Virus record (IMG/VR): IMGVR_UViG_3300042905_004424
From: an uncultured virus (IMG/VR IMGVR_UViG_3300042905_004424)
Lineage: Duplodnaviria; Heunggongvirae; Uroviricota; Caudoviricetes
Strand: one strand, 5' to 3'
Length of the DNA stretch: 20,000 bases
Each line of letters begins with the position of its first letter. The stretch's first letter is position 1. This document shows, piece by piece, positions 3,544-20,000 of this stretch. Position numbers and translations under genes: made by a program. The notes beneath the pieces are model-generated. The model did no database searches, was not told where the DNA came from, and saw only the letters and a list, made by a program, of their open reading frames with translations.

Positions 3544-5703
3544 ATGCCAATTACAATCAATATTTACCAACAACCTAACGGACTTCAATTCCAAGGATCA
3601 GGAACGCTAAACTTAGACTCATTTATTGGGAAAACACAAGGAAATGCGGCTAACGTAAATCAAGGTCTTAGATTCAGATCTAATGCTTTAAATAATTTAG
3701 CTTTAAATAGATTATCATGGATAGGTCTTAATAATCCTAACACTAATTATAGGTTTTACCCTAATTTATTTACGACAATACCAAATTTTGGAACCTCCTC
3801 AACAGATTATACTACCGCTATAAATACATTTGCAACAGGAGGTCAGTTTTTTATGGTGGGACAAGATGCGACTATAGGGCAATTAACCGTTCCACAGTCT
3901 TATGTTTCAGGTTTAAATTTTAGTTGGGGTTTTTTATTACCAAGTTTAACCTATGCTGGTTTAGGAATGTCTCCACAAACAATTACACGAAGTTGGACTG
4001 GATCTACTGGTGTGGTTGAGACTCTAACAATTATCGTCAACCCATTACCAACGTCAAATGTTAATATAAACGTTATTGAAACTAATGGAAATGTTTATGT
4101 TGAAGTTGTTGGAAATATAGGGACTGGATATGTAACGGCATGTGGACTTGGATTTGGACCTGGAAATTCAATATTCTCATCACAAAGATGGGTACAATTT
4201 GGGTCTAGTAGTGTTGGTTTTTGTAAAGTGCAAATAAATTCTTTCCCACCAAGTTTTGGGAATACCTCAAGAACCGCTAATATTGGATCTCAGTTCACTC
4301 CTTTTAGAGTTGACAATCAAGGGGCTTACTTTGATCAAAATGCTTTAACTGATGATATTAATACAAGTATAACTTTTACTGGAACAACAATTGCCGGTAT
4401 GGGTTTAAATACTGGAGTATATAATTGGTATGGACCCGATAATAATATCCAAATGAATATTATTGGACCAACACCAACACCAACGGTTACGGCAACCAAC
4501 ACGCAAACACCAACCGTAACACCAACAAATACCGTTACACCCACAATTACGCCAACAGTAACGCCAACAGTTACGGAGACACCAACACCAACACCTACAC
4601 CTACAGTTACGCCAACAGTTACAACTACGGTTACTATTACACCAACTGAGACACCAACTAATACGCCAACACTTACGCCAACACTTACAGAAACACCTAC
4701 CCCAACAGTTACGGCAACTGTAACAGAAACTCCTACACCAACCGCAACAGAAACACCTACAGCAACACCTACAGCAACTGTAACACAATCTGTCACACCT
4801 ACTATTACACCAACAACTACGGTTACTATTACGCCAACTGAGACACCAACTAATACACCAACACTTACACCAACAATAAGTATTACACCTAGTTTTGCGT
4901 CTTCACCAACACCTACACCTACAATTACGGAAACACCTACTGTTACTCCTACTGTTACTCCTACGGTTACTGAAACACCTACAAATACTCCGACAGTAAC
5001 TCCAACAAATACAACAACACCAACACAAACAGTTACGGAAACACCAACTCAAACACCAACAGGAACTCCATCGGTTACACCAACAGTTACGGAGACACCA
5101 ACTCAAACACCAACAGGAACTCCATCGGTTACACCAACTATTACACCAACACTTACAGAAACACCATCGGTTACACCTACTAATACGATTACGCCTACGG
5201 CAACACAAACACTTACACCTACTGTTACTCAAACACAAACTCAAACTCCTACACCGACAGCAACTGTTACCCCATCTAAATCTCCAGCACCTGCCACTTT
5301 AAATGCAAATTTTAATGTAAATGTGGTTGATGGATCAATATCAGTAATAACAACTGTTTCTTACAATTTAGGAATTCCAGTTCCAACTATAGTTTACTTC
5401 ACAGTAAATATTATTTTAACAAATGGTGTAATATTTACAGTCCCTGAAAGTATTACGATCCCTGCATCCACATTACAAGGATCTGTAACTACTACACTTC
5501 CAGGAAATGCGGCACAAGTATCTAACTTAAGTTATGTGAATAATATAACAATTACAAACTATGCTGGAGTTGTTATACCAAATATTATAATTAGCATCAA
5601 CCCAACACCAACACCTACGCCAACAGCAACATTAACACCACTACCAACTATAACACCTTCACCGGCTAATTGTTGTCCAATACTTGCAATACCAGGATCT
5701 TAA
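3544..5703 (+). CDS. Mucin-like Thr/Pro-rich protein B (719 aa), paralog of 671..3469
   Basis: Same start (MPIxxxIxQQPNGxxFxGSGTLN), two tandem beta domains, a ~275-aa TP tract, and a shared C-terminal domain (VDGSI...PGNAAQ...VIPNI...TPSPANCC). Confidence 0.85.
4468..5292 (+). repeat. Degenerate Thr/Pro coding repeat tract of protein B, including a 54-bp near-perfect tandem duplication (5029-5082 / 5083-5136)
   Basis: [18 protein letters not shown] x2 with one synonymous mismatch; also a dispersed ~60-bp repeat at ~4621 and ~4813. Confidence 0.9.
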
Positions 5704-6749: not shown

Positions 6750-6757
6750 TATATTTG
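6750..6757 (+). promoter_or_regulatory. Bacteroidota sigmaA-type -7 promoter element (TAnnTTTG)
   Basis: TATATTTG with exactly 4 nt before ATG 6762. Confidence 0.65.
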
Positions 6758-7143: not shown

Positions 7144-7150
7144 TATTTAT
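7144..7150 (+). promoter_or_regulatory. TATTTAT motif, putative late promoter element
   Basis: 4 nt before ATG 7155. Confidence 0.5.
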
Positions 7151-7154
7151 TGAT

Positions 7155-8069
7155 ATGAAAGTGTCATTAACAGAAGAACAACTTAGATCATTCAATAATA
7201 GACTTATTTATGAAGGTATTTTGGACGACATGGTTTTCAAAATATCTTTAATTGTTGAGGACGGTAAAACCGAACCTGACATGGAGTGGGATTTCACCAA
7301 TGTTAAAAAAGATATAGATAAATCAAAGTTATGGGTTAAAACAAAAGAAGATGCGATCCAATACGTTGAAAGTGTTGTGGATAAAATTAAAAATATTCCA
7401 CCTGAATTAAGAAAAAAAATCTTAAAATATGTAATATATTCTTTTATTGGATTACTTTCAATTAAACAACTAAATAAAATGGTTGAACCAGTTGTAAAAA
7501 AGGCTGATCAAATTGAGAAAGAAACAATCGAAAAAATTATTTCACTAAGAATTAGAAAATCAAGTCCAGAATTATATGAACACATGAGATATGAAGAAGG
7601 TTCCATAACAAAAAAAGGAGAACCTGTTTTGGTCGCCTATAATCTTGGTGATGGGGCATACACTATTGGTTATGGTCACGCAATATTTAGAGGTGAAAAT
7701 GAAGGGTATGAATTCCTACCGAATTATAATAAAATAATACCAGGTAAAACTAAAATCACTAAAGATCAGGCGGAGATACTACTTAAAGACGATATTAGTA
7801 ATTCCGAAGAGATAATAAATAAAATTCTTAATAAATGGGAAACAGAAGGTATTAAAATTAAGGTTAGTCAAGGAATGTATAATGCTATGGTATCAATGGC
7901 ATATAATATGGGTCCTGGTATTATAAAAAGTGATTTTATTAAAGCTTTAAAATCGGGCAATACATATTTAGCGGCAGAAGAAATATTAACCACAAGTTCA
8001 AACCTGTTTAAAAAATTCCCCGGTCTTGAACCAAGAAGAATGAGGGAATATAAAATGTTTACATCATGA
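7155..8069 (+). CDS. Phage lysozyme (GH24 muramidase) with ~140-aa N-terminal extension
   Basis: YEEG...AYNLGDGAYTIGYGH (E-D-T catalytic pattern), ITKDQAEILLKDDI, MVSMAYNMG, GLEPRRMREYKMF. N-terminal leader MKVSLTEEQL. Confidence 0.9.
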   Translation: MKVSLTEEQLRSFNNRLIYEGILDDMVFKISLIVEDGKTEPDMEWDFTNVKKDIDKSKLWVKTKEDAIQYVESVVDKIKNIPPELRKKILKYVIYSFIGLLSIKQLNKMVEPVVKKADQIEKETIEKIISLRIRKSSPELYEHMRYEEGSITKKGEPVLVAYNLGDGAYTIGYGHAIFRGENEGYEFLPNYNKIIPGKTKITKDQAEILLKDDISNSEEIINKILNKWETEGIKIKVSQGMYNAMVSMAYNMGPGIIKSDFIKALKSGNTYLAAEEILTTSSNLFKKFPGLEPRRMREYKMFTS

Positions 8070-8749
8070 ATAAAGAAAAAATATTAAAATTATTTAAAAA
8101 CTTTGTGGGTGAAGAGGTAAACATTTCCGGACTTCAATGTATTCCTGTTGGGGTTGGTGAATATGGTTCACATAATTCTATTATGGGTACCGGTTGGAAT
8201 CCAAACCCATATCATCAAATTCACTTTAAAATAAAAAATCCAAATAATGTCTGTTATTTTTATGCAATAATTTATGAAGAGTTATTAGAATTATTAGAAG
8301 AATTTACCCAATATATTAGTATTAAACTAAGACCAAATATAATATGGGAGGACACACAACCAAAATTTTATCTTAACGACGAAACAAGAAACAAAATACA
8401 AAAAGTTTTTGACTCTGTAAAAGAAATTAAATTTACAACAGGAAATTTAGATGGTGATGGCAAAGAATATGTTATTGAAATAAATTCAATTGGTTTTAAC
8501 AATAAACATTTTGATCTTGAATCATTTTATCTCCAAAACAAGGTTGTTCCAATATCTGCAACAAAAAATGGCGAAAATGTTGATGTGAGTGAGGTTATTT
8601 ACAAATATATAGATGAGTTTTTACCTAAAGTAGAAACTTACTATGAGTCAGAAGAATATTATAAAAAAATAGATGAGATAATTACCAAACATCCACTTTT
8701 AAATGCGGATTATATTGCGACTTATTACGATACAAAGTTTATCCAATAA
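8066..8749 (+). CDS. Hypothetical acidic protein (227 aa)
   Basis: ATGA overlap with the lysozyme stop codon; overlaps the convergent uvrC 3' end by 11 nt. Confidence 0.8.
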   Translation: MNKEKILKLFKNFVGEEVNISGLQCIPVGVGEYGSHNSIMGTGWNPNPYHQIHFKIKNPNNVCYFYAIIYEELLELLEEFTQYISIKLRPNIIWEDTQPKFYLNDETRNKIQKVFDSVKEIKFTTGNLDGDGKEYVIEINSIGFNNKHFDLESFYLQNKVVPISATKNGENVDVSEVIYKYIDEFLPKVETYYESEEYYKKIDEIITKHPLLNADYIATYYDTKFIQ

Positions 8750-10013
8750 CTTTCTTTGATCTTTTTTGTCGGTGAAAAGTAATCACGAATCGGTGAACTT
8801 CATTTTGAATCTCAGCCAATAAAAACCCAAACTCACTTCTTGGAATATCAAAACTTGACCCATCAATCTTGTGTATTGTTTGAGATTGGTGTTTATCGTT
8901 TTTAGAAATGGAGATCAAATCAATAGAAGATAACAATCCAAGAGATTCAAATACTTTTTTTGCAACACCCAACTGACCTTTACCGCCATCAATAACAACA
9001 AGTGAAGGTAACTCTTGTTTCTCATTTAAAAGTCTTTTGAAACGACGATTTAATACCTCAGTAAATGATGCGTAGTCATCAGGACCCTCAACAGTTTTGA
9101 TATTGAACTTACGATAGTTTGACTTATCGGTCTTACCATTCTTGTAACGAACAAGGGCAGACACCTGACAATCACCAGCAGTGTGAGAGTTATCAAAAGC
9201 TTCAATAAGAGTTGGAACATTCAATAAACCAAATTGTTCTTTGAAAGATCTTGAAATATCACAATACTTTCTAACACGAAACGACTCAAGTTTTTTCTCT
9301 AACAAATCAACAACATCCATTTTGTTTTTTAAGTTCTGAGAAATCTCAAACTCCATTTGTTCAGAATGATACTTCATAAACTTTCTCAAACGATTTCGAA
9401 CCTTGTCAAACTGAAAGGAAAATACATCTCTCATCTCACTTACAATCTTTAAGTAAGAAAACTTCTGAATTGAGGAAACACAAGGAGCATTACAACGACC
9501 AAGATGAAATTCCAAACAAGTCTTGAACTTTTCATTTTGAATATTTTCTTCAGTCAAGTTATAAGAACAAGATCTAAGATTGAAAATGTCATGAACCATC
9601 TCATAGATCTCATAACAAGAGTTAGAACTTGTAGATTCCAAAAGAACTTCACCAGTAAAGTTAGAAGGGTTACAAACTAAAAGTCTTGGGAACTCATCCG
9701 AACTCAAAGTGATAAACCAACGACGAGATCTGTCATCTTTTGCTTTGATGTTGTATTTTGGTTTGTGTGATTTGATAAGTTCGTCTTCCAACAAAAGAGC
9801 TTGAGATTCATCATCAGTGGTCATGAACTCAACATCACGAATCTCATTTACCAAGAAAGTTGTCTTTTTATCTTTGTGGTTTTTTTGAAAGTAAGACTTA
9901 ACTCGTTTAGGTAAAAACTTTGACTTACCCACATAGATAATCTGACCCTTCTCGTTTTTGAAAAGGTAACAGCCACTAGATTGGGGTATATTTGAAAGTT
10001 TCTCTGTAATCAC
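8739..10013 (-). CDS. uvrC: UvrC-family excinuclease (GIY-YIG + Cys cluster + UVR + RNase H-like domain; no C-terminal HhH), ~424 aa
   Basis: SGCYLFKN..IIYVGKSK..RVKSYF, LEDELIK.HKPKYN, C..CLEFHLGRCNAPC, IEAFDNSH, YRKFNIK..GPDDYASF, LVVIDGGKGQL, QNEVHRF. Start reassigned to GTG 10013 (VITEKL), 4 nt after the promoter motif. Confidence 0.93.
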   Translation of the reverse strand: MITEKLSNIPQSSGCYLFKNEKGQIIYVGKSKFLPKRVKSYFQKNHKDKKTTFLVNEIRDVEFMTTDDESQALLLEDELIKSHKPKYNIKAKDDRSRRWFITLSSDEFPRLLVCNPSNFTGEVLLESTSSNSCYEIYEMVHDIFNLRSCSYNLTEENIQNEKFKTCLEFHLGRCNAPCVSSIQKFSYLKIVSEMRDVFSFQFDKVRNRLRKFMKYHSEQMEFEISQNLKNKMDVVDLLEKKLESFRVRKYCDISRSFKEQFGLLNVPTLIEAFDNSHTAGDCQVSALVRYKNGKTDKSNYRKFNIKTVEGPDDYASFTEVLNRRFKRLLNEKQELPSLVVIDGGKGQLGVAKKVFESLGLLSSIDLISISKNDKHQSQTIHKIDGSSFDIPRSEFGFLLAEIQNEVHRFVITFHRQKRSKKVIG

Positions 10014-10017
10014 AATA

Positions 10018-10025
10018 CAAATATA
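10018..10025 (-). promoter_or_regulatory. Bacteroidota sigmaA-type -7 promoter element (TATATTTG) for uvrC
   Basis: The minus strand reads TATATTTG-tatt-GTG. Confidence 0.65.
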
Positions 10026-10067
10026 GTAATTTTTTATGGTAATTTTAAGTAAAAATTTATTAATCAA

Positions 10068-10074
10068 TATTTAT
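10068..10074 (+). promoter_or_regulatory. TATTTAT motif, putative late promoter element
   Basis: 18 nt before ATG 10093. Confidence 0.45.
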
Positions 10075-10092
10075 TATTAATAAAATAGAATA

Positions 10093-10884
10093 ATGGATGT
10101 AAATAGATTTAAAATATTGTTAGAATCTAAGTTAGGTAATATTAAAACATTAATATCTGAAGAAAAAAATGATGAAATAATCAAAATTCAAACAGATTTA
10201 GTTAATAAAGGTTATAATATTGGATTGTCTGGACCAAATAACGATGGTATTGATGGTGTTATGGGACCAAAAACAAAATTGGCATATAAAAAAGAATTTG
10301 GCAAATCATATGGTGATGAGGTAACAAATAAATTAAATAATGACGAGTTAATAGGTAAAACGTCTATTAATGATTATGGTGAAATATTGTTTTCTAAAAA
10401 TAAAACAGCCCCATTACTTATGGTTTATGGTGGAATAAATGTTGGTGGAAAAAAAAGTGGGGTATATATGTGGGATTATGTTAATAAATTAAAAGATAAA
10501 TATACTATATTTGTTGCTAATGACCATAAGGTAAGTGGTCTTAATTCATATAAAAAAGTTTTAGAGTCTTTAAAGGAAAATAATATTACACCATCTTCTA
10601 AAATACTTTATTTATTTTCTGGTGGATATAAACCTGGAAAAGAATTACTAAATTCTAACTCAGGTGATTTTAGTGAAATTTTACTTGTGGACATTTGGAT
10701 GGGTGGGTCAGTAGGTAATTTTTATAAGAAATTTGTTAAAGACAATAGTTCAAAAGTTAAATATTATTATACCTCATTTGGATCTCAAAACGATGACGCT
10801 AAAAATTTTATATCCAAAATTGTTTCAAGTGTAAAAAATAGTAATCACATGGAAACAAATACTGATGCGGTTAACAATTTATAA
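10093..10884 (+). CDS. Peptidoglycan-binding domain (PG_binding_1-like) fused to putative alpha/beta-hydrolase-like domain
   Basis: IIKIQTDLVNKGY...DGIDGVMGPKTKLAY is a typical PG-binding motif. Downstream are LMVYGG, LYLFSGGY (nucleophile-elbow-like), ILLVD and C-terminal NHM. Confidence 0.7.
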   Translation: MDVNRFKILLESKLGNIKTLISEEKNDEIIKIQTDLVNKGYNIGLSGPNNDGIDGVMGPKTKLAYKKEFGKSYGDEVTNKLNNDELIGKTSINDYGEILFSKNKTAPLLMVYGGINVGGKKSGVYMWDYVNKLKDKYTIFVANDHKVSGLNSYKKVLESLKENNITPSSKILYLFSGGYKPGKELLNSNSGDFSEILLVDIWMGGSVGNFYKKFVKDNSSKVKYYYTSFGSQNDDAKNFISKIVSSVKNSNHMETNTDAVNNL

Positions 10885-10891
10885 TAATTAA

Positions 10892-11242
10892 TTACATATT
10901 TTTTAAAATCACTTCTAAAGTATAGATGGACTCACGATCTTGTTTAGTTTTAAATTCTTTAGATTTAAGATAGTTTAAACTATCAACTAATTCATCTCTC
11001 TTTGATTTAGGTTTTGTTATTACTTGGACATCCTCATAATCATCATAATCATTGTCATTATCGTCAACTAAATCTTTCATCCACGAACTAACATCTAAAT
11101 CGGCGGTTTTTAATTCGTCGTATAACCAATAATTATTATCTTCAGATTTAGAAGTTATTACATTAGTTATTTCGATGTTCTCATCTTCTGGTTTAAGATC
11201 AAAGAACTCATAAACTCGGTCATTAATTTTTTTCATTATCAT
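10892..11242 (-). CDS. Hypothetical acidic protein (~116 aa)
   Basis: Start reassigned to ATG 11242 (MIMKKIND), 4 nt after TATATTTG; Asp-rich centre. Confidence 0.75.
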   Translation of the reverse strand: MIMKKINDRVYEFFDLKPEDENIEITNVITSKSEDNNYWLYDELKTADLDVSSWMKDLVDDNDNDYDDYEDVQVITKPKSKRDELVDSLNYLKSKEFKTKQDRESIYTLEVILKNM

Positions 11243-11246
11243 GTTA

Positions 11247-11254
11247 CAAATATA
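11247..11254 (-). promoter_or_regulatory. Bacteroidota sigmaA-type -7 promoter element (TATATTTG)
   Basis: The minus strand reads TATATTTG-taac-ATG. Confidence 0.65.
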
Positions 11255-11300
11255 CAAATATTTTTTAAATCAACTATTATTTATTTAATTTTTTTTAAAG

Positions 11301-11307
11301 TATTTAT
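11301..11307 (+). promoter_or_regulatory. TATTTAT motif, putative late promoter element
   Basis: 5 nt before ATG 11313. Confidence 0.5.
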
Positions 11308-11312
11308 ATAAT

Positions 11313-14129
11313 ATGAAAGATCTTGTAATACAAATATTAACAGAAGAATCAAAAAAATTAATTTTTGAGTCTGGTATTAGAAACATAAAAGAATTATCTA
11401 AACGATATCCTAAGGCAAAAATATATTTTCATCAGGATTTGGATGGAGTGACAACTGCTTTAGGTATGAAAAACTACTTAGAACAAAATGGAATTAAAGT
11501 GGTTGACTCTGAAATTATCCAATATGGTGATAAGGAATTTGCAATTAAAAAATTAGACGCCGAAGGTGATGTTATGCCGGTGTTAGTTGACTTTGCTCAC
11601 GGTAAACCAATGTTTGTTATACATACTGACCATCACGATACGCAAGCTGGTGTAGAACAAGGAACATCAACCAATTTTAAAGCGTCAAGATCAAACGTTG
11701 AGACAATATCTCAAACCGTATCACCAAACGACATTTTTCCATCAGACGATATAACTTTAATTTCTACTGTTGATTCAGCAAACTACGCACAATACGATAT
11801 AACACCCGAAGAGGTAATGAATTATTTGTTTAAGGTAGATAAAGATCAATCATTACAAAAAAACAAAATGGTTATGGGAATGGTAACCAATAAATTATTA
11901 TTAGCATTTAAAAACAAACCAAAATTTTTAGAAAATATCGTAATGAATGCAAATCCATCACTATTAAGTATTTTAATGTATATTAAATCTCAAATTAAAG
12001 ATAGTGGATATGCTGATGTGGACACATTAGAAAAAAATAAAGAGATGTATGTCCAATCAATGAAGATAAATAAGAATGTTAAAGTTGATGATGGGATAAT
12101 AGTTCAATATGGTGGAGGTAGTATGATGAAACCAGGATCATATGATAGATACACACCATTCAGAAATAATCCTGACGCTGACTTCTTGGTGATTGCTTGG
12201 CCCTTAGGGTTGGTACAAGCGTCTTGTAATCCATTTAAGAAAGAAAGAGCACTTAAAGGTGTGAACTTAGGTGAAATTAAAGATGAGGTCTTAAACAAGT
12301 GGAAATCACAATTACAAAATAAAGACATTCCTTTGTCCACAATTAAATGGATATCTGAATCAGGAAAAAGTTTTAATGAAGAATCTGTTGGTTTTACATT
12401 TAAAGACTTTAATGCTTTGTATGGAAAAGAATTTAAAAGAATGGATAATGGTGAAAAAATATTAAATGATATTGATGTTGTAATGAAAAAACCATTTAGT
12501 GAATTGACACAAAACGAAATGAAAATGTTGGACTCAATTAGTGTAAACGCTTGGGATTTAATTAAATCAAATAGTGGTGGACATAAATGTATTACCAATA
12601 TTTCAGGATTGTCTTATTTAGGTAGATCTAAACGACCACCTGAAGGTAAATATAAATATAATTCTGAATCTGATGACTCTCCATATGTTAAATTTACTAA
12701 AATGATACAAAATGAATTTGCAAGAATTCTTAAAGAAAAAATTAAAGAAACTAATAATGTTAATGAAAATTACAACTTAATTAGAAAAAAAGATTTAATT
12801 CCAAATCAGATTAATTACAAAAATATAAAAAAAATGTTAATAAAAGAAGAAACATTTGGGGCTACTTGGAAATCACCAATACCAGGAGATGCTGATTTAC
12901 TTCATGCGTTTGAAAGACGAAAATCTGACAAACAAGGGGCTCTTATTGGAACCCAAATTGAGGAGAAACTAAAAAAACTTTATGATGATGGAATTAACCC
13001 TGACATAACTGATTTAAAGTTAAATGTAGATTCTAAAAACTCTACGGTAACGTGGAGCGCAACTATTGGTCCTAGTACTGATGGTAAAGCATACATGGGA
13101 ATTTCAACAAGAGGATCTACTGGTGGTAGTTCAGAAAAACGAGCTTTAGATCAAGTAGGTCCTTTAAAACAACAATTAAGTTCAAAAGGATATCAAGACA
13201 TAACACCAATCACTTTTGACGGAAAAGACCATTTTGTAAATCCATCTGGTAATAAAATTCACCAATACTTTTTCAAATATACAGACCCAAATAAATATCC
13301 ACCTCACCCAACTAAAGATGGTTTAAATGTTGATAACACTAATACATCTTTAACAACAAACTCATCAGAAAATGATTTATTTGGTATAAAAGGTATTTTA
13401 TCCAAAATTAAAGAAAAATTATTCAAAAACAAAACAAACACAAAAAGTAGTGATACAACAAGCAATAATACAACAAGTGGTGACACAACAAGTAATAATA
13501 CAACCACCACAGATTCCGATTTTAAAACAATAACAAAAAAAGTAATTGCAAATTTTGAAGGAGGATATTGGAATCCATTTTGCCCGCACCCAACTAGCCG
13601 TATGGGTAAATCAACTGAGACTATGTTTGGTTTGGATAGGTATAATGGTAATATTGAAAGCACTGATAAAGGAAAAGAATTTTTTAAGATTATAGACGAT
13701 GAAAAAATCGCAGCTGGAGCCACATCTAGTGGTGAAGGTAAAAACATGAAATGGACAAACATGGGTAACTTTTGTAAAAAATGGAAATGGTTATATAGAG
13801 GTGGAGATAAAAAAGAAAAATTAGAAGATCTTGCAACTGAAATTATGGAAAAATACTTTAATAAAAACATGAGTAGTTATATTAAAGACTCTAAGACCAA
13901 AGAAAAAATTATGGGAAATAAAGGATTATTAGTGCATATGTCATACGCAAGTTGGAATGGTCCCGGATTCTTTCAAAAATTCGGAAGAAAATTAGAAGCC
14001 GCGGTAAAAGACGGAAAATCCGACAAAGAATTAATTGATGTTGCCTGTCAATCAAGATTAGACACTGGATTAAACCAAAGTAAAGTAATAGAGGCCATTA
14101 AAAATCCTGATGGGATGAAAACGGCTTAA
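11313..14129 (+). CDS. Multidomain protein (938 aa): DHH-family phosphoesterase + unknown domain + S/T/N linker + GH108-like lysozyme domain
   Basis: DHH motifs: FHQDLDG, VLVDF, HTDHH, STVDSA, SGGH. The C-terminal VIANFEGGYWN...TETMFGLD...ASWNGPG resembles GH108 (EGGY...T..GI). N-terminal leader MKDLVIQILTEE; internal MLIKEE. Confidence 0.8.
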   Translation: MKDLVIQILTEESKKLIFESGIRNIKELSKRYPKAKIYFHQDLDGVTTALGMKNYLEQNGIKVVDSEIIQYGDKEFAIKKLDAEGDVMPVLVDFAHGKPMFVIHTDHHDTQAGVEQGTSTNFKASRSNVETISQTVSPNDIFPSDDITLISTVDSANYAQYDITPEEVMNYLFKVDKDQSLQKNKMVMGMVTNKLLLAFKNKPKFLENIVMNANPSLLSILMYIKSQIKDSGYADVDTLEKNKEMYVQSMKINKNVKVDDGIIVQYGGGSMMKPGSYDRYTPFRNNPDADFLVIAWPLGLVQASCNPFKKERALKGVNLGEIKDEVLNKWKSQLQNKDIPLSTIKWISESGKSFNEESVGFTFKDFNALYGKEFKRMDNGEKILNDIDVVMKKPFSELTQNEMKMLDSISVNAWDLIKSNSGGHKCITNISGLSYLGRSKRPPEGKYKYNSESDDSPYVKFTKMIQNEFARILKEKIKETNNVNENYNLIRKKDLIPNQINYKNIKKMLIKEETFGATWKSPIPGDADLLHAFERRKSDKQGALIGTQIEEKLKKLYDDGINPDITDLKLNVDSKNSTVTWSATIGPSTDGKAYMGISTRGSTGGSSEKRALDQVGPLKQQLSSKGYQDITPITFDGKDHFVNPSGNKIHQYFFKYTDPNKYPPHPTKDGLNVDNTNTSLTTNSSENDLFGIKGILSKIKEKLFKNKTNTKSSDTTSNNTTSGDTTSNNTTTTDSDFKTITKKVIANFEGGYWNPFCPHPTSRMGKSTETMFGLDRYNGNIESTDKGKEFFKIIDDEKIAAGATSSGEGKNMKWTNMGNFCKKWKWLYRGGDKKEKLEDLATEIMEKYFNKNMSSYIKDSKTKEKIMGNKGLLVHMSYASWNGPGFFQKFGRKLEAAVKDGKSDKELIDVACQSRLDTGLNQSKVIEAIKNPDGMKTA

Positions 14130-14225
14130 ATAACATATTGTGGTTTTTTATGTTACCAAAAAGTTAAGTTTGATTTTAAAATTATGTTTAAGTAAATTTA
14201 TAACTATCTATTATTAAAAAGAATT

Positions 14226-14351
14226 GTGGTTTTAATTTTATTAGTAGTGTTGTCTTTAGTTTTAATAATTTTAAAAGATCGTAAAGATTATTTTAAGTAT
14301 AAAAAAAAATATGGAGTTATCAAATCTTGTAACGATTGTAATACCTTGTAA
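14226..14351 (+). CDS. Putative small membrane protein (41 aa), not in ORF track
   Basis: GTG start, 16-residue hydrophobic stretch (VVLILLVVLSLVLIIL), then a Lys-rich segment; overlaps the GT2 start. Confidence 0.4.
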   Translation: MVLILLVVLSLVLIILKDRKDYFKYKKKYGVIKSCNDCNTL

Positions 14352-15033
14352 AAACGAAAAGGATATTATATTAAAAACGTTGGACCTATTAAACTATCAA
14401 GTTGATATACATAACGTAAAAGTTGTTGTATGTGACGCATCAAATGATGGGATAACAAAATTAGATCTAATTACAAGGTTAGAGTATGTGAATAGAACCG
14501 ACCTGTTTGTCTTACGAGTAATGGATGGTGGACTTCCAGCAATAGCAAGAAACAACGGATTCAAACTTGTTACAACACCATATGTGTTGTTTATGGATGC
14601 TGATGTATTCTTATTAGACCCAAAGGTATTAATAAGATCGGTAATAAAGATAAAAAAACACAATTTAGATCTAGTAACAACAAAGTTTCGTTCTGATAAT
14701 GGGAATTATAATTACGTGTATAAGGTATTTGATTTAATACAGACACTCTCCAAGTGGTCAACACCATTCTGCCTTGGTGGATATATGTTAGTTCGTTCAG
14801 AAACGTTTAAGTCAATCGGAGGTTTTGATGAAGAGATTAAAGTTGCTGAAGATTATATGCTTTCAAAACAAATTAAACCAAAGAAATTCGGAAGAATAAA
14901 CAATATTGTATATACACCACCAAGAAGATTTGAAAACAAAGGTGTGATGTATATGTTAAGACTTATGTTATCATCATTTTTCAACAAAAATAACAAAGAA
15001 TACTTTACAAACGACAAAGGTTATTGGAAATGA
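14311..15033 (+). CDS. Glycosyltransferase family 2
   Basis: VTIVIPCKNE, VVVCDASNDG, PAIARNNG, VLFMDAD (DxD), GGFDEEIKVAED, PRRF. Confidence 0.92.
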   Translation: MELSNLVTIVIPCKNEKDIILKTLDLLNYQVDIHNVKVVVCDASNDGITKLDLITRLEYVNRTDLFVLRVMDGGLPAIARNNGFKLVTTPYVLFMDADVFLLDPKVLIRSVIKIKKHNLDLVTTKFRSDNGNYNYVYKVFDLIQTLSKWSTPFCLGGYMLVRSETFKSIGGFDEEIKVAEDYMLSKQIKPKKFGRINNIVYTPPRRFENKGVMYMLRLMLSSFFNKNNKEYFTNDKGYWK

Positions 15034-15743
15034 AAAAGTGGAGAACAATTATAATGAGTGATTTACATTTAGGCGCCAGACAATCACAAACAAATAAGAT
15101 ATTAAGATTCTTAGAAGAGAATGAATCTGAAACACTAATATTAAATGGTGACATTATTGATGGATGGGCATTAAAGGGTGGTGGTAAATGGAAAAAAGAT
15201 TGTTCAAAGATATTCAGACGGTTTATGAAACGATCAGAAGATGGAACAAAGGTAGTATATATTAGAGGAAATCACGATGACTTTTTAAAACCATTTGTTC
15301 CGTTCTTATTAAACAACATAGAGATTGTTAGAAAATACACACACATCGGAGCGGACGGAAGAAGTTACTATTGTTTTCATGGAGACGTATTGGACTTTGT
15401 TATTATGAAAGTAAGATGGTTGGCAGTTCTTGGTGGATGGTCATATGATTTGGTGATAAGATTAAATACATTTTATAACTACATAAGAAGAAAGTTTAAC
15501 TTACCATACCATTCATTGGCAAATGATATTAAACAATCTGTAAAGGGGGCAATCAACTTTGTGTCTGATTTTGAGGAAAACGCAAAAGGTTTATCAAAAC
15601 AAAAAGGATTTGATGTTGCGGTATGTGGACACATTCACCAACCTAAGTTAGATGTGGATTATATGAATTCAGGAGACTTCTGTGAGAACTCCACATGTCT
15701 TGTGGAGGATTTTAAAGGTAAGTGGCAAATAATGTATATGTGA
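15030..15743 (+). CDS. Calcineurin-like metallophosphoesterase, UDP-2,3-diacylglucosamine hydrolase (LpxH)-like family
   Basis: SDLHLG, LNGDIIDGW, RGNHDD, FHGD, CGHIH, YMNSGD; ATG 15030 overlaps the GT2 stop (ATGA). Confidence 0.88.
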   Translation: MKKWRTIIMSDLHLGARQSQTNKILRFLEENESETLILNGDIIDGWALKGGGKWKKDCSKIFRRFMKRSEDGTKVVYIRGNHDDFLKPFVPFLLNNIEIVRKYTHIGADGRSYYCFHGDVLDFVIMKVRWLAVLGGWSYDLVIRLNTFYNYIRRKFNLPYHSLANDIKQSVKGAINFVSDFEENAKGLSKQKGFDVAVCGHIHQPKLDVDYMNSGDFCENSTCLVEDFKGKWQIMYM

Positions 15744-15747
15744 ATAC

Positions 15748-15754
15748 TATTTAT
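15748..15754 (+). promoter_or_regulatory. TATTTAT motif, putative late promoter element
   Basis: 4 nt before ATG 15759. Confidence 0.5.
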
Positions 15755-15758
15755 CATT

Positions 15759-16235
15759 ATGAACCTACAAGAATCTATAAGAAGAATATTAAGAGAAGAA
15801 TTTAATGAAGATAAGAATCTTTATGGTGAGAAATTAAAACCATGTTCAAGAAATCCAATGACAGGGTTTTACAAGGATGGGTATTGTAGAACAGGAAATA
15901 ATGACACAGGAAGTCATACGGTGTGCGCAAAAGTAACAGAAGAGTTTTTAGAGTTTACCAATTCAATGGGGAACAATCTTGATATGTTGGAACCTGGTGA
16001 CAAATGGTGTTTATGTGCAAAAAGATGGGAAGAGGCAAACAAAGAGGGAGTTGCTCCTGAAATGATTAAAAGTTCAACAAACATTAAAACATTAAATATA
16101 ATTGGTGGTATTGAACAAGAACTTGATGAATACGCAAGAACACTTAAAAACGCAAGACAACAGGGGGTTGGGTTAAGATTCCCAAAGTCGGCAATAAAGG
16201 CAAACCCAGCAAGGTTTAGGCCATACAACAGGTAA
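15759..16235 (+). CDS. DUF2237-family protein with N-terminal IRRILREE leader and cationic C-terminal tail
   Basis: NLYGEKLKPCSRNPMTGFYKDGYC.TG..DTGSHTVCA.VTEEFLEF...PGDKWCLCA.RW.EA..EGVAP matches the DUF2237 pattern as recalled. Confidence 0.85.
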   Translation: MNLQESIRRILREEFNEDKNLYGEKLKPCSRNPMTGFYKDGYCRTGNNDTGSHTVCAKVTEEFLEFTNSMGNNLDMLEPGDKWCLCAKRWEEANKEGVAPEMIKSSTNIKTLNIIGGIEQELDEYARTLKNARQQGVGLRFPKSAIKANPARFRPYNR

Positions 16236-16236
16236 T

Positions 16237-16401
16237 ATGAAAAAAATAATAAGATTAACAGAATCAGAACTTATTTCATTAGTTAAAAGAGTAATGAAAG
16301 AAGGTGAACTTACAGAAAAATGTTGGGCAGGATATACTCAAAAAGGTATGAAGACAATGTTTGGTAAGAGATACCCTAACTGTGTTAAGAAGACAAAGTA
16401 A
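16237..16401 (+). CDS. Small protein (54 aa): leader + CWxGY...PNCV cationic peptide; not in ORF track
   Basis: MKKIIRLTESELISLVKRVMKEGELTEKCWAGYTQKGMKTMFGKRYPNCVKKTK*. It fits exactly between its neighbours, with 1-nt gaps on both sides. Confidence 0.85.
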   Translation: MKKIIRLTESELISLVKRVMKEGELTEKCWAGYTQKGMKTMFGKRYPNCVKKTK

Positions 16402-16402
16402 T

Positions 16403-17035
16403 ATGTCATATTTAAATGCAAACCTACCAATAATTAACTGTTTAATTAGAAACGAATTTTTATTTAACCATAAAAAAGGAAATGGTGAATTTACACCATG
16501 TGATGTTCATTCGGTTGCATCGATTCAAGGGAGAACACCTTTATTTGAGGCATTCTTGGAGAACGGAGTAAATTGGACACGAAGACCAATACACGCATTT
16601 GTATGGAAAGAAGATGCGGAAGTATTAGATTTAACTGAACATATATATTGGGATTGTTTTAGTCCTTACATTGACGTAAAAGTTAGGGAGAGACTATCAG
16701 GTTTAAGAGCCGATTTAATATCAATCACTGGAGTTAAAAGAGTGGGAACATATCTATTCACACTTGATTGGTCTCACGAAAATAGAAACAATCTTGATTT
16801 AGGTTTTTCTGAAACACCTGAACACAAATGTGGTCACGTATTCAAAATGGATAATGGTAATTATTTTATTTATCCCAACAACAGGATAATTTGGTTTGAC
16901 AGAGCTTGGACATTTAATAGGATAGATAAGAATCCTGGTTATGAAATAGATTTAAATATATATTCGGTGGAGAATAAAACATATCACACTACAGATTATT
17001 CATACATGACTGAGTTCGCCAAAGATAACGAATAA
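16403..17035 (+). CDS. Conserved phage hypothetical protein (210 aa, MSYLNANLP...)
   Basis: The true start is probably ATG 16403 rather than TTG 16361, which lies inside the 54-aa gene. The motifs YLNAN.P, NG..W.R.PI.AF, WDCFS, YLFTLDW, EHKCGH and NGNY..YPNNRI resemble a widespread phage family of unknown function. Confidence 0.8.
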   Translation: MSYLNANLPIINCLIRNEFLFNHKKGNGEFTPCDVHSVASIQGRTPLFEAFLENGVNWTRRPIHAFVWKEDAEVLDLTEHIYWDCFSPYIDVKVRERLSGLRADLISITGVKRVGTYLFTLDWSHENRNNLDLGFSETPEHKCGHVFKMDNGNYFIYPNNRIIWFDRAWTFNRIDKNPGYEIDLNIYSVENKTYHTTDYSYMTEFAKDNE

Positions 17036-17090: not shown

Positions 17091-17097
17091 TATTTAT
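17091..17097 (+). promoter_or_regulatory. TATTTAT motif, putative late promoter heading the leader-bearing gene array
   Basis: Immediately after the terminator, 6 nt before ATG 17104. Confidence 0.55.
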
Positions 17098-17103
17098 AAT
17101 AAT

Positions 17104-17751
17104 ATGAAACACCTAATTAGAAAAATATTAAAAGAGGAGGTAAATAAGAAATACCCAAAACCAACACCAAACGTTGAAAAACTAATATATAATTGGTTAA
17201 ATAACTATTTTTCAGGATCTAAAATGTATCAAACAAAGGACTATGCGTTTAGCTATACTTTTGAATGGTGTAATAATGGTATGGAAATAGCTCAAGCTAT
17301 TATAGATTTTAACCATGATCACGATGCTTGGGATGACAAAAGAAAAACAAGTGAACGAAATTTTGAATCAGGAGAATTTTCAATACCTGAAGATATTATA
17401 GATGATTTAGAAACTGATATACCGGTAAGAAGAAACTATTTAAGATATATTGTAGAAGAATGGTTTGAAGATACATTGTTAGAAAAAATCAAAAGTGCAT
17501 TGGGAAGAAATGATATATCAATAGATGATTTTTCTGAACACCCTAAAAAGTCTCAAGTTTGCGTTCCTCCTGTTTCAAAACCTGAAGGGGTTACAGATGA
17601 TGAAATGATTGATTTTATTGTCAAAAATACTTTATTTAGAAGAGATGAGTTAGAAAAAAGAATTGTAGATGAACGTGAATGGTTGGAAAAATTATATACA
17701 GATAAACTGCGTAGCTCAGAAGTGGATAGAGTAAGAGGAAGTAGATGGTAA
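17104..17751 (+). CDS. Hypothetical acidic protein with MKHLIRKILKEE leader (215 aa)
   Basis: ORF track; carries the shared leader. Confidence 0.85.
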   Translation: MKHLIRKILKEEVNKKYPKPTPNVEKLIYNWLNNYFSGSKMYQTKDYAFSYTFEWCNNGMEIAQAIIDFNHDHDAWDDKRKTSERNFESGEFSIPEDIIDDLETDIPVRRNYLRYIVEEWFEDTLLEKIKSALGRNDISIDDFSEHPKKSQVCVPPVSKPEGVTDDEMIDFIVKNTLFRRDELEKRIVDEREWLEKLYTDKLRSSEVDRVRGSRW

Positions 17752-18197
17752 TGAGAAAACTTATTAAACACATATTAAAAGAAGAAGTATCTAAACAACA
17801 AATAGATAAGGGTATTGATATTGTTATTAACGGATTAAAAAAAGAATTTCCATTTGTTGTTGGTTGGAAATTACATGACAATTATGATGAATATATAACA
17901 AGCATTTATATTGATTTGGTTGTTGAATATGAAAAAGTAAAAGAGTTCTATGGTTTAAAACCTAAAATGACGTATAGCCTTGAATATATTAAAAACAGAC
18001 AAGTGGCATATGTCCTTACTCCATTTAAATATGAAGGCAATTTTGACCCATATATAGAGTCTCAAAAATTAAGTGAATATGTATTTGAAATGTATGAATA
18101 TATACCTGAAGAATTAAAGTTAGAAGAAAAGGATACGTATGGTTCTTCAAGGACTAACTATAAAGCATTAAAAGTTGATGATTTTATTTTTGTTTAA
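17751..18197 (+). CDS. Hypothetical protein with MRKLIKHILKEE leader (148 aa)
   Basis: Start reassigned to ATG 17751 based on the TAATG overlap and the leader alignment. Confidence 0.85.
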   Translation: MRKLIKHILKEEVSKQQIDKGIDIVINGLKKEFPFVVGWKLHDNYDEYITSIYIDLVVEYEKVKEFYGLKPKMTYSLEYIKNRQVAYVLTPFKYEGNFDPYIESQKLSEYVFEMYEYIPEELKLEEKDTYGSSRTNYKALKVDDFIFV

Positions 18198-18520
18198 TGA
18201 GAGGACTAATTAGATACATATTGAAAGAAGAAACAGAAGAAATTGACCAAAAGGTTATGAATTTTCTTGTGCGAAGATATGAAGTTAAAGAAATAAATAT
18301 TGACGACAATATTAGACTTAAAAGGATTCATTTCAAAGTAGATGATGATTATTATAATATTGGAACTTTTGATAATAAAAAAAGACAAGTAAGATTGATT
18401 TTAAATATGTTAGAAGATAATAATGTTACAGAACCAATTGATAATTTTTCAAATGAAAACAATCCATATAGACAAAAAGTTATTAGAACAATTAAAAAGT
18501 TTTTATCCCAAGTAATGTAA
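18197..18520 (+). CDS. Hypothetical protein with MRGLIRYILKEE leader (107 aa)
   Basis: TAATG overlaps at both ends. Confidence 0.85.
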   Translation: MRGLIRYILKEETEEIDQKVMNFLVRRYEVKEINIDDNIRLKRIHFKVDDDYYNIGTFDNKKRQVRLILNMLEDNNVTEPIDNFSNENNPYRQKVIRTIKKFLSQVM

Positions 18521-18954
18521 TGAAAGAGTTAATTAGACACATATTAAAAGAAGAAGAAAATGAAAACCTAAAAGAAAGGTTTGTTAGATCCGCCCAATCC
18601 ATTCCTTATATTATCCAAAGTAATGTAGATTCAAATCTTTTTACAGAAATTGAAATTGGAAGTATTAATTATAATAACAATCATAACAGCATTGATGGTG
18701 AATTGTTAATAACATCTTGGTGTGATGATCCTGACCTTTTTTCGTTTACAAACCAACTGAAATTAGTTGATAAAGAATTGGACACAGTTTTACTTAATTA
18801 TTCATTTACAAGTAACGGTTCTTTTGGGAAAAAGAAAGGTAAATATAATAACTTGATGTGTTGGTTTATTGGTTGTGAATGGAGTGCTGAAGGTGATTAT
18901 ACAATGAAGATGAAATACCATTTTACGCAAGAAGAATATGATGATGGTGAATAA
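18520..18954 (+). CDS. Hypothetical acidic protein with MKELIRHILKEE leader (144 aa)
   Basis: TAATG overlap with the upstream gene. Confidence 0.85.
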   Translation: MKELIRHILKEEENENLKERFVRSAQSIPYIIQSNVDSNLFTEIEIGSINYNNNHNSIDGELLITSWCDDPDLFSFTNQLKLVDKELDTVLLNYSFTSNGSFGKKKGKYNNLMCWFIGCEWSAEGDYTMKMKYHFTQEEYDDGE

Positions 18955-20000
18955 AGATTTAATTAGACATATCTTAAAAGAGGAAACTCGTGACACCAAA
19001 TCAAAACTAATTAAACAAATTGAAGATGAGGGGTTGTATTCTATTGCTGAATTAGTTGGGGGATTAGACAACCTAAAGAAGATACTAAAAGATAACCCCG
19101 AAATGGTTGAAAGAATTGAAAACCAAAAAGGGTTAGTTAAAGTGTCTTGGACAACGGATGGAGACGATCCATCAATTGATTTGCCATTTAAAATTATTGG
19201 TGCAGGGTGGAATATATGGATGACTAATAGTTGGCCAATAGTTAATATTATTTATAATGAAAATAAATTAACTAAAGATGAGAATTATAAATTTAAAGAT
19301 TTTTTATATGATTCTTTTAATGATGAAAGTTCGGTAAGAGTTCTTAAACTTAATAGTGATGAACCTAGAATGCATAAAACCTATGTTCAGTTAGGGGAAA
19401 TAAATGGGAAAACTGCACAAAAAAATACAACCGATTTAAGTCGCAGTTATGATCTGTCTGATATTCGGGAAATAGTAGAAACGTTAGGATATGATAATAT
19501 TATTAAAGAGGAGGTAGATAACACTAAAGAAATTCAAAAAAATTTAAGAACAATTAAGATATTGTTATCTCAAATTAGTTGGGAAGGACTTTGTGATATA
19601 TGGGTAGAATATAATCCTGTTGATAAGGATTATGAAATCAGATCCAAGTCAATAAAAAGACATTTTGATCATGACGAAATTGTTAATGAATTAAATTTTG
19701 TGGAAGAATCAATAAAAGCTATGGGTCTCAGACCTTATGTATTTTCACCATGGCATGTTGATAATTGTGAGGATGAGGTTGAGTTTATGAACGAAAGTAT
19801 AGATAAAAGTGATGAGAAAAGAAACAAGATCATAGAAAAAATTATGGACAACATTATTTTTCCTGAATATAAACATATCATTTGTGGTTATGATGTAAAA
19901 AATGATGAGGTTTTTAATGAACCTGTAGTTAATGTTACTTTTATTGGTGGGTATGGAACAAAACTTTGGCCTACCACACAAGGAATTCAAAAAATGTATA
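18938..20000 (+). CDS. Hypothetical multi-segment protein with NKDLIRHILKEE leader, 3'-truncated (>350 aa); not in ORF track
   Basis: The frame is open from ATG 18938/18941/18944 (or GTG 18947) to the window end: (MMMV)NKDLIRHILKEETRDTKSKLIKQIEDEG...NIIKEEVDN...EFMNESIDK...GGYGTKLWPTTQGIQKMY. Confidence 0.85.
   Translation, partial: MMMVNKDLIRHILKEETRDTKSKLIKQIEDEGLYSIAELVGGLDNLKKILKDNPEMVERIENQKGLVKVSWTTDGDDPSIDLPFKIIGAGWNIWMTNSWPIVNIIYNENKLTKDENYKFKDFLYDSFNDESSVRVLKLNSDEPRMHKTYVQLGEINGKTAQKNTTDLSRSYDLSDIREIVETLGYDNIIKEEVDNTKEIQKNLRTIKILLSQISWEGLCDIWVEYNPVDKDYEIRSKSIKRHFDHDEIVNELNFVEESIKAMGLRPYVFSPWHVDNCEDEVEFMNESIDKSDEKRNKIIEKIMDNIIFPEYKHIICGYDVKNDEVFNEPVVNVTFIGGYGTKLWPTTQGIQKMY

What the first reader, a model, noticed from the sequence alone, without database searches (positions are those of the whole stretch)
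7155..16401. The same leader family is grafted onto recognisable enzymes across the window
Seen: DUF2237 begins MNLQESIRRILREE and the DHH fusion begins MKDLVIQILTEE. The PG-binding protein begins MDVNRFKILLE...KTLISEE, the GH24 lysozyme MKVSLTEEQL...LIYE and the 54-aa gene MKKIIRLTESEL...VMKE. The last two define a second variant, MKxxxLTExxL. All these genes follow a TATTTAT motif or are coupled to a gene that does. Genes behind TATATTTG promoters (6762, uvrC, 11242) and the two complete GT2 genes lack the leader. Inference: captured bacterial-type domains were recruited into the virion by acquiring the leader together with late expression.
Basis: partly seen in the sequence, partly recalled or inferred. 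Interest (0 to 1): 0.75.

Follow-up and report, generated by a model that had tools for sequence, protein, structure and literature searches.

The report
Swappable capsid-loading tags on phage enzymes
In this uncultured giant lake phage, unrelated enzymes and small proteins start with short, interchangeable tags that their bacterial relatives lack and that end in the predicted cut site of the head protease, so they are likely loaded into the virus head and trimmed there, as phage T4 does with a handful of proteins.

Summary
It is not one leader but three or four interchangeable peptides (7-35 aa) that share only a final hydrophobic-[I/L]-x-E. That is the motif T4 gp21 cuts. A complete relative encodes a gp21-family protease, and its capsid protein keeps this motif at the T4-like propeptide end (79/79 loci).

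The leaders are phage additions on DUF2237 (0/74 bacterial copies) and on the 'PG-binding' protein, which is mainly an alpha/beta-hydrolase (0/12). Orthologues swap leaders at a fixed Glu (DHH 80/80). Leaders are enriched in TATTTAT units (20/41 vs 6/77, p=7e-7), but half of those units' genes lack them. The motif also precedes replication genes. Capture from bacteria is unproven for DHH and GH24.

Best reading: a T4-CTS-like load-and-clip system on a scale of tens of genes. Neither loading nor cutting has been measured. This scan has already reported the same system on other contigs.

The parts
7144..7150 (+). TATTTAT motif (putative phage-sigma promoter) before the GH24 gene
   Evidence: present within 50 nt of the first ATG in 56 of 60 orthologous loci
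7155..7259 (+). Type A leader of GH24, residues 1-35; predicted cut sites after L-T-E7 and I-V-E35
   Evidence: E7 and E35 each 25 of 25 distinct orthologous 5' ends with I/L at P3; E20 20 of 25
7155..8069 (+). GH24 lysozyme with a 135-aa N-terminal extension
   Evidence: PF00959 E 6e-17, residues 159-298; PDB lysozymes
10068..10074 (+). TATTTAT motif
10093..10161 (+). Leader of the 263-aa protein (rare type, sites L-L-E11 and I-S-E23)
   Evidence: orthologues P0244-P0246 carry other leader types ending at the same junction; the ESKxGxxKxL core recurs on unrelated genes of G001 and G007
10168..10284 (+). PG-binding-like segment (weak)
   Evidence: PF01471 E 0.006, below cut-off; precomputed PF01471 on 5 of 96 homologues
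10345..10881 (+). alpha/beta-hydrolase domain, predicted triad S176-D200-H252
   Evidence: invariant Ser, Asp and His in 63 sequences; model pLDDT 95.9; Foldseek best hits are esterases and related hydrolases
11301..11307 (+). TATTTAT motif (second copy at 11278)
11313..11369 (+). Stacked leader of the DHH fusion (I-L-T-E11, then L-I-F-E19)
   Evidence: junction Glu in 80 of 80 loci, P3 I/L in 79 of 80, leader 5-22 aa
11370..12752 (+). DHH-like phosphoesterase domain, clade core gene (stand-alone, about 468 aa, in most relatives)
   Evidence: PF01368 E 0.0004, sub-threshold; invariant DxD and DHH motifs
12816..12851 (+). Internal leader-like segment ending L-I-K-E512 at the fusion joint
   Evidence: sequence; the C-terminal half occurs as separate leader-bearing genes in relatives (L300, L303, L306, L307, L312)
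13488..14126 (+). Third domain, possibly lysozyme-like (lead only)
   Evidence: ESM Atlas feature hit 0.93 to clusters with PF21277 on 12% of members; no Pfam or PDB sequence hit
15748..15754 (+). TATTTAT motif
15759..15800 (+). Type B leader of DUF2237 (I-L-R-E13)
   Evidence: absent from 74 of 74 bacterial copies read from the nearest ATG; replaced by type C in other phage copies
15813..16106 (+). DUF2237 domain
   Evidence: PF09996 E 2.5e-38
16131..16232 (+). Basic 34-aa C-terminal module behind L-D-E124
   Evidence: present, absent or exchanged among homologues
16237..16317 (+). Type A+B leader of the 54-aa protein (L-T-E9, V-M-K-E22, L-T-E27)
16318..16398 (+). 27-aa basic two-Cys peptide (xCWxGY...PNCV), a mobile module
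   Evidence: preceded by [L/I/M]-x-E in 118 of 118 motif-bearing homologues; same module in S-SCSM1 gp29, annotated 'virion protein'
17091..17097 (+). TATTTAT heading a run of five more type B leader genes
17104..18985 (+). Five further unrelated genes with type B leaders (17104, 17745, 18197, 18520, 18938), outside the finding's coordinates
   Evidence: 33-nt repeat family D1, 76-88% to the reference copy
6750..6757 (+). TATATTTG (host-type promoter element) before leaderless gene 6762
   Evidence: the reading as a Bacteroidota -7 element is recalled
10018..10025 (-). TATATTTG before leaderless uvrC
11247..11254 (-). TATATTTG before leaderless gene 11242

Best explanation
The leaders are short, interchangeable N-terminal peptides that likely direct their proteins into the assembling prohead and are predicted to be cut off after the final I/L-x-E by the phage's T4-gp21-type head protease. 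Shown: several peptide types end in hydrophobic-[I/L]-x-E; they are swapped on orthologues at a fixed Glu; they are absent from bacterial homologues of two cargo domains; they are enriched in TATTTAT units; relatives encode a gp21-family protease and keep the same motif at the capsid-protein propeptide end. Inferred: TATTTAT is a promoter for a phage sigma factor; the leader binds the scaffold core; the protease cuts it; the trimmed enzymes (lysozyme, esterase, DHH-like phosphoesterase) and basic peptides stay in the head and some are ejected into the host. A new cargo would be recruited by fusing a leader-coding 5' end to a gene. Fusing two tagged genes would leave an internal cut site, as in the 938-aa protein.
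For: T4 gp21 cuts after L/I-X-E and T4 internal proteins carry 10-19-aa capsid-targeting propeptides (PMC9026906, passages). Relative G006 (318 kb, CheckV 100%, 43 reciprocal best hits at 47.7% mean identity) has portal, PF03420 protease (PDB 5jbl, E 9e-15), a scaffold-like gene and a Gp23 capsid protein. Capsid propeptide end: L-[I/L/M]-x-E in 79 of 79 matched loci, of 80. DHH junction: E in 80 of 80, P3 I/L in 79, eight residues at P2. GH24: E7 and E35 in 25 of 25, both Glu codons used at E35. Two-Cys peptide: E in 118 of 118, under all leader types. 263-aa protein: three leader types on four close orthologues, same junction; 38 of 96 homologues start with a T4-CTS-like pattern instead (T4 CTS read). 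Bacterial DUF2237 0 of 74 and bacterial hydrolase 0 of 12 readable loci have a leader. Association with TATTTAT units: contig 20/41 vs 6/77, p 7e-7; held-out G007 52/197 vs 9/179, p 8e-9. With a plain 4-residue motif: 21/39 vs 11/63, p 2e-4, with no effect in internal control windows. Tail, baseplate and neck genes (0 of 7) and the GH19 lysis endolysin of G006 have no leader.
Against: There is no virion proteome or cleavage data for this clade, and the window's own contig holds no head genes, so the protease is borrowed from relatives. The leaders do not share the T4 CTS sequence (MKTYQEFIAE). Counting only genes directly behind TATTTAT, the contig's association is not significant (10/27 vs 16/91, p 0.061); at unit level 3 of 7 relatives are not significant (G002, G004, G005). 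0 of 7 tail genes is weak against a base rate of 34/145. TATTTAT also heads DnaB and NrdAB. I/L-x-E is not enriched in the scaffold (10 vs 7.4 expected). Amphipathicity does not separate leaders from other N-termini. Loci are related and not independent, the patterns were written after seeing most of the data, and the query contains the site. Folded enzymes of 20-50 kDa, and the hydrophobic stretch 89-103 of GH24, raise the question of how they would be ejected.
Confidence: 0.68

Rival explanations
1. The leaders are prohead-protease cut sites or head-assembly helices, but most tagged proteins are core filler or are destroyed; they are not delivered as working enzymes.
For: T4 degrades gp22, gp67 and gp68 entirely (PMC9958956, passage). 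Most tagged genes are small, variable and of unknown function. The type C leader resembles the scaffold's C-terminal helix (rank 20 of 91,820 windows with a 5-sequence profile).
Against: The cargo domains here keep invariant catalytic residues (hydrolase Ser-Asp-His; DHH motifs; GH24 Glu) and hold few internal I/L-x-E sites: GH24 one after residue 35, hydrolase one.
Confidence: 0.14
2. The leader-coding DNA is a mobile 5' cassette (translation start plus recombination handle) that spreads between genes of one expression class; the peptide is a by-product.
For: Six copies of a 33-nt repeat at 76-88% identity in the window. Same-codon pairs run at 64-69%. Many leaders sit in translationally coupled runs. 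Promoter cassettes that shuffle genes are known in T4-type phages (PMC2839356, search listing and abstract start only).
Against: Mean nucleotide identity among leaders is only 56-57%, with about a third of same-residue pairs using different codons. Unrelated leader types of 5-22 aa all end at one Glu. The motif equals the capsid-protein site. A handle role can coexist with the peptide role.
Confidence: 0.1
3. The leader is a cytoplasmic sorting, oligomerisation or degradation tag of middle and late proteins, unrelated to the capsid.
For: TATTTAT units include replication genes. No localisation data exist.
Against: Those replication genes, the glycosyltransferases and the lysis endolysin carry no leader. 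The terminal motif matches the head-protease site. The 54-aa gene's module occurs in a cyanophage protein annotated as a virion protein.
Confidence: 0.08

Closest known systems
T4 capsid-targeting sequence (CTS) of IpI, IpII and IpIII, and the gp21 protease
   Same: Short N-terminal peptide on unrelated non-essential proteins, ending in I/L-x-E; gp21-family protease and Gp23-family capsid in relatives; the lysis lysozyme lacks the tag in both (T4 gene e; G006 GH19 endolysin). T-even phages carry diverse ip genes that share only the CTS (PMC3012670 and PMC12373910, passages).
   Different: No MKT[YF]xEF sequence; three or four leader types rather than one; about 30-45 tagged genes per genome above background (46 vs 17 in G006, 61 vs 15 in G007) against three Ips plus Alt; cargo includes cell-wall and ester hydrolases; leaders are stacked and retained at fusion joints; nothing measured.
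Propeptides of head and ejection proteins of phiKZ-like phages (SPN3US gp245, A-x-E; phiKZ gp175, S/A-x-E)
   Same: Many internal head proteins are cut after Glu by the head protease; there are redundant sites within a propeptide (PMC5694885, PMC9026906, passages).
   Different: Those propeptides are mostly over 100 aa and not shared between proteins; different P3 residue; different phage group.
P1 DarB capsid-targeting signal
   Same: An N-terminal stretch of at most 30 aa suffices to package a foreign protein (PMC9024508, passages).
   Different: No consensus shared among the Dar proteins; no I/L-x-E clip described in the passages read.
bS21-encoding freshwater Bacteroidetes phages (Chen et al. 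2022, PMC9723584)
   Different: The paper's main text has no occurrence of 'motif' or 'promoter'; it does not describe the leaders in the passages read.

Membership tests
T4 CTS / internal proteins | N-terminal 10-19-aa propeptide ending in L/I-x-E | tested here: met
   All five proteins have I/L-x-E within the first 13 residues and again at 13-35; the site is conserved across orthologues.
T4 CTS / internal proteins | CTS sequence MKT[YF]xEF, with targeting residues 4 and 7 | tested here: not met
   T4 IpII/III MKTYQEFIAE and IpI MKTFKEF.. differ from every window leader. A similar pattern occurs only on distant homologues of the hydrolase.
T4 CTS / internal proteins | Phage encodes a gp21-family (Peptidase S77) protease and a Gp23-family capsid | tested here: inconclusive
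   Met in relative G006. The window's 77.8-kb contig is a fragment without head genes. A 272-kb contig holds both a GH24 orthologue (L252) and the capsid gene (L425).
T4 CTS / internal proteins | Protein is packaged in the head and the leader suffices to package a foreign protein | not testable with these tools
   No cultured member or proteome found.
T4 CTS / internal proteins | Leader is removed by the protease during maturation | not testable with these tools
   Needs semi-tryptic virion mass spectrometry or an in vitro assay.
GH24 phage lysozyme | PF00959 above cut-off, catalytic Glu | tested here: met
   62.5 bits vs 22.3; the Glu-Glu pair is invariant in 10 orthologues, while the usual Asp position holds Leu or Ile.
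alpha/beta-hydrolase fold | Fold plus nucleophile elbow and Ser-Asp-His | tested here: met
   no Pfam family reaches cut-off
DHH phosphoesterase (PF01368) | Pfam gathering score; DxD and DHH motifs | tested here: inconclusive
   21.1 bits vs cut-off 28.1; motifs invariant in 11 orthologues
PG_binding_1 (PF01471) | Pfam gathering score | tested here: not met
   17.1 bits vs 23; some homologues carry the family

The most novel reading that the evidence does not exclude
This clade of giant Bacteroidota phages runs a plug-and-play virion cargo system. Several unrelated, stackable address peptides, exchangeable with the classical T4-type CTS, let it turn any captured gene (here a bacterial esterase and DUF2237) into a packaged, protease-released and injected effector, at 30-60 genes per genome, with fused genes acting as polyproteins. 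The tags would then give a sequence-only catalogue of injected anti-defence and envelope-remodelling proteins for thousands of uncultured phages.
Probability: 0.35. Interest if true: 0.75.

Novelty: new variant of a known kind. Interest (0 to 1): 0.5.

Why it matters
If the tags work as T4's CTS does, they mark from sequence alone which of the hundreds of unknown genes of uncultured giant phages are carried in the particle and act in the first minutes of infection. In T4 all three such proteins block host restriction enzymes (PMC12373910, passages). This window adds outgroup controls: two domains whose bacterial homologues lack the tag, and orthologues that swap tags at one Glu. It also names testable cargo (a lysozyme, an esterase, a DHH-like enzyme). 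The principle itself is thirty years old, and this scan has met the same system on several other contigs, which limits the surprise.

Tried and rejected
Complex prediction of the 54-aa leader with the capsid protein and scaffold C-terminus of G006 gave no answer (score 0.00); it is not evidence either way. RNA runs: three holders at share 0.06, contigs only and mostly relatives, so they gave no start sites or levels. The single-sequence model of the 263-aa protein was poor (pLDDT 51) and its fold search was empty; it was replaced by an alignment-based model. Family searches for the protease and capsid in G001-G005 rang nowhere (fragments). The single-protein search for DUF2237 in bacterial genomes found nothing until an alignment was used. 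The deep profile search for DHH homologues never ran, so distant bacterial DHH relatives may be missed. The capsid N-terminus MGALLE looked like a cut site, but its Glu is replaced in 7 of 67: not claimed. Scaffold enrichment for I/L-x-E was not found. Hydrophobic moment is not discriminating. The cultured relative Mel-JY01 (protease 42%) shows no clear window-type leaders in the 40 kb read and has no paper in the library. The type B match on ORF 6051 is a mis-called internal start of a GT2 gene; it was left in the counts, against my reading. A secretion-signal reading was rejected: the leaders are charged and lack a hydrophobic core.
Full report
Setting. The window is the last 20 kb of a 77.8-kb, 30% GC virus contig without head genes. 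Relatives were reached through the DHH-like protein (about 900 stored stretches in IMG/VR by the tool's estimate) and a second gene. G006 (318 kb) and G007 (296 kb) are rated complete and share 43 and 44 reciprocal best hits with the contig at 48% and 55% mean identity. G006 has T4-type portal, protease, capsid and sheath genes, a sigma-70-like factor and a bS21 gene on the opposite strand in the head region. This fits the freshwater Bacteroidetes bS21 phages of PMC9723584 (passages read). The host is inferred, not shown.

Observation. All quoted N-termini and motifs are present. I wrote three patterns: A, h-x-h-[S/T]-E near the start; B, h-x-x-h-h-x-E; C, E-N-I-x-R-I-x-x-M-M. They were written after seeing G000-G006 but not G007. 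They match 26 of 118 ORFs of at least 50 aa in the contig, against 5.7 in shuffles and 4 of 102 internal windows. TATTTAT is strand-biased and mostly 0-25 nt before the start codon; it precedes 27 of 118 genes against 6.8 expected.

Association with TATTTAT. Genes directly behind the motif: 10/27 vs 16/91, p 0.061, not significant. With genes coupled within 25 nt: 20/41 vs 6/77, OR 11, p 7e-7; host-type promoter units 0/8. In relatives at unit level: G007 p 8e-9, G006 p 1.5e-5, G001 p 3e-4, G003 p 0.003, but G002 p 0.14, G004 p 0.1 and G005 p 0.74. A plain h-[I/L]-x-E in residues 2-31 gives 21/39 vs 11/63 (p 2e-4) in the contig and p < 4e-4 in G001, G006 and G007, with no difference at residues 42-71. 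The relation is one-way: most leaders are in TATTTAT units, but half to four fifths of those units' genes have none. Of 145 such genes of at least 120 aa in G006 (of 260 genes of that size), 34 match a relaxed leader pattern. The seven tail, baseplate and neck genes, the GH19 endolysin, glycosyltransferases, DnaB and NrdAB do not. So the motif is probably a phage-sigma promoter that is not strictly late (inference), and 0 of 7 tail genes is only weak support.

Is the leader a graft? DUF2237: 80 bacterial loci were fetched, 74 with an ATG. None has a leader from the nearest ATG (one matches from a far ATG), and the median start is 4 residues before the domain, against 18-19 here. Of the best 120 of 626 protein hits, 78 match patterns B or C and many of the rest are near-miss C variants; some fusion forms keep the leader at the joint. 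The 263-aa protein is leader + weak PG-binding segment + alpha/beta-hydrolase. Its four closest orthologues carry three different leaders ending at the same place. Of 96 homologues, 5 match the clade patterns, 38 a pattern resembling the T4 CTS (written after seeing them) and 53 neither. Seventeen bacterial loci, mostly Acidobacteriota, hold the hydrolase; in the 12 my script could read, the protein starts 17-31 residues before the first strand with no Glu-ended leader. DHH-like protein: a core gene of the clade, stand-alone in most relatives. Bacterial genomes gave three loci: two AT-rich 3-kb contigs with the leader (probably phage) and one 34% Myxococcales protein with a signal-peptide-like start. 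GH24: a phage-type family; the three genome hits were uninformative. So 'captured from bacteria' holds as a plausible reading for two of the four domains, and the direction was not rooted.

What is conserved. In DHH the residue before SG[LI]R is Glu in 80 of 80 loci, with I/L two before in 79 and eight residues in between, while the leader varies from 5 to 22 aa and in type. In GH24, E7 and E35 are invariant in 25 distinct 5' ends (from 60 loci; those starting MK[VLI]) and E20 is not. The 27-aa two-Cys peptide of the 54-aa gene follows [L/I/M]-x-E in 118 of 118 motif-bearing hits (120 listed of 378), behind A, B or C leaders or at the end of other proteins; the query contained this site, so the count is biased. 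These loci are related and are not independent events.

Link to the head. T4 gp21 cuts after L/I-X-E and removes 10-19-aa targeting propeptides (PMC9026906, passages; PMC9958956, passages). The G006 protease is PF03420 and matches T4 gp21 (5jbl, E 9e-15). In 79 of 80 capsid loci my anchor matched, and all 79 read L-[I/L/M]-x-E near residue 60, close to where T4 gp23 loses its 65 residues. All 49 scaffold C-termini printed end with I/L-x-E and a short helix (read by eye). That helix resembles the type C leader only weakly (rank 20 of 91,820, profile of 5). The two-Cys module occurs at 77-86% identity in the best cyanophage matches. One is S-SCSM1 gp29, a string of basic modules separated by x-x-E, labelled 'virion protein' in GenBank. 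The paper detected 45 virion proteins by mass spectrometry (PMC9602691, section 13 and passages), and its supplement lists only a hypothetical best hit for ORF 29. The label therefore probably comes from the proteome, but I could not see the figure that lists them, and gp29 has no window-type leader.

Mechanism. Most likely: TATTTAT-driven synthesis during morphogenesis, leader-mediated binding to the scaffold core, clipping at I/L-x-E on maturation, and retention or ejection of the trimmed protein. The 938-aa protein would be split at L-I-K-E512; its C-terminal part is a separate tagged gene in relatives. DUF2237 would shed a basic tail at L-D-E124. Only the sequence patterns are shown; every step of targeting, cutting and delivery is inferred. 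The DNA-handle rival is partly true at most: six 33-nt copies at 76-88%, but 56-57% mean identity and many synonymous differences.

Prior art. The leaders fail the T4 CTS sequence test, so this is not filed as a CTS, but it likely works like one. Nine literature searches (the third term of 59 was malformed and matched nothing) showed no description of these leaders in this clade. The library lacks most subscription papers, and bioRxiv supplements are closed. Repoila 1994 and Mullaney and Black 1996 were seen only as citations. My reading was stated before the scan's notes were opened. Eight notes by words and two by place describe the same or a similar system on other contigs; they are repeats, not independent support.

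Verdict. Interest 0.5.

Noticed in passing
window 671-3469 and 3544-5703: Two long Thr-Pro-repeat paralogues behind TATTTAT, without a leader and without Pfam hits; probably external virion fibres.
   Followed up: no
window 8739-10013 (-): Phage-encoded UvrC (TIGR00194 above cut-off), GTG start behind a host-type promoter, apparently without the C-terminal HhH domain (424 aa).
   Followed up: partly
window 14311-15743: Coupled GT2 glycosyltransferase and LpxH-like metallophosphoesterase, also paired in G001 and G006; no leader.
   Followed up: no
P0247-P0303: The same hydrolase domain in other AT-rich, presumably phage, proteins starts with T4-CTS-like peptides such as MKHLLTYQQLFE, suggesting that address tags of different phage groups are exchangeable on one cargo.
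   Followed up: partly
L513: The only bacterial-looking DHH homologue (Myxococcales bin, 34%) has a signal-peptide-like N-terminus where the phage has its leader, hinting at an exported ancestral enzyme.
   Followed up: partly
L203:12820-13275 (-), G006; orthologue on the window's contig 6.9 kb before the window: A Dps/ferritin-like or DUF5856 protein carries a leader.
   Followed up: no
L196:16403-17419 (-), G006: An A+B leader on a protein with a weak OmpA-like C-terminal domain; another candidate envelope-directed cargo.
   Followed up: no
G006 L207:8125-12563: DnaB helicase and NrdAB lie in a TATTTAT-headed unit, so the motif is not confined to structural genes.
   Followed up: partly
window 16403-17035: Gene coupled to the 54-aa gene, without leader; matches phrog_3704 ('ferredoxin', E 2e-50).
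   Followed up: no
run X3, loose end at 16314: An RNA-library contig joins the two-Cys module to a start reading like a classical T4 CTS; a single contig, not checked.
   Followed up: no
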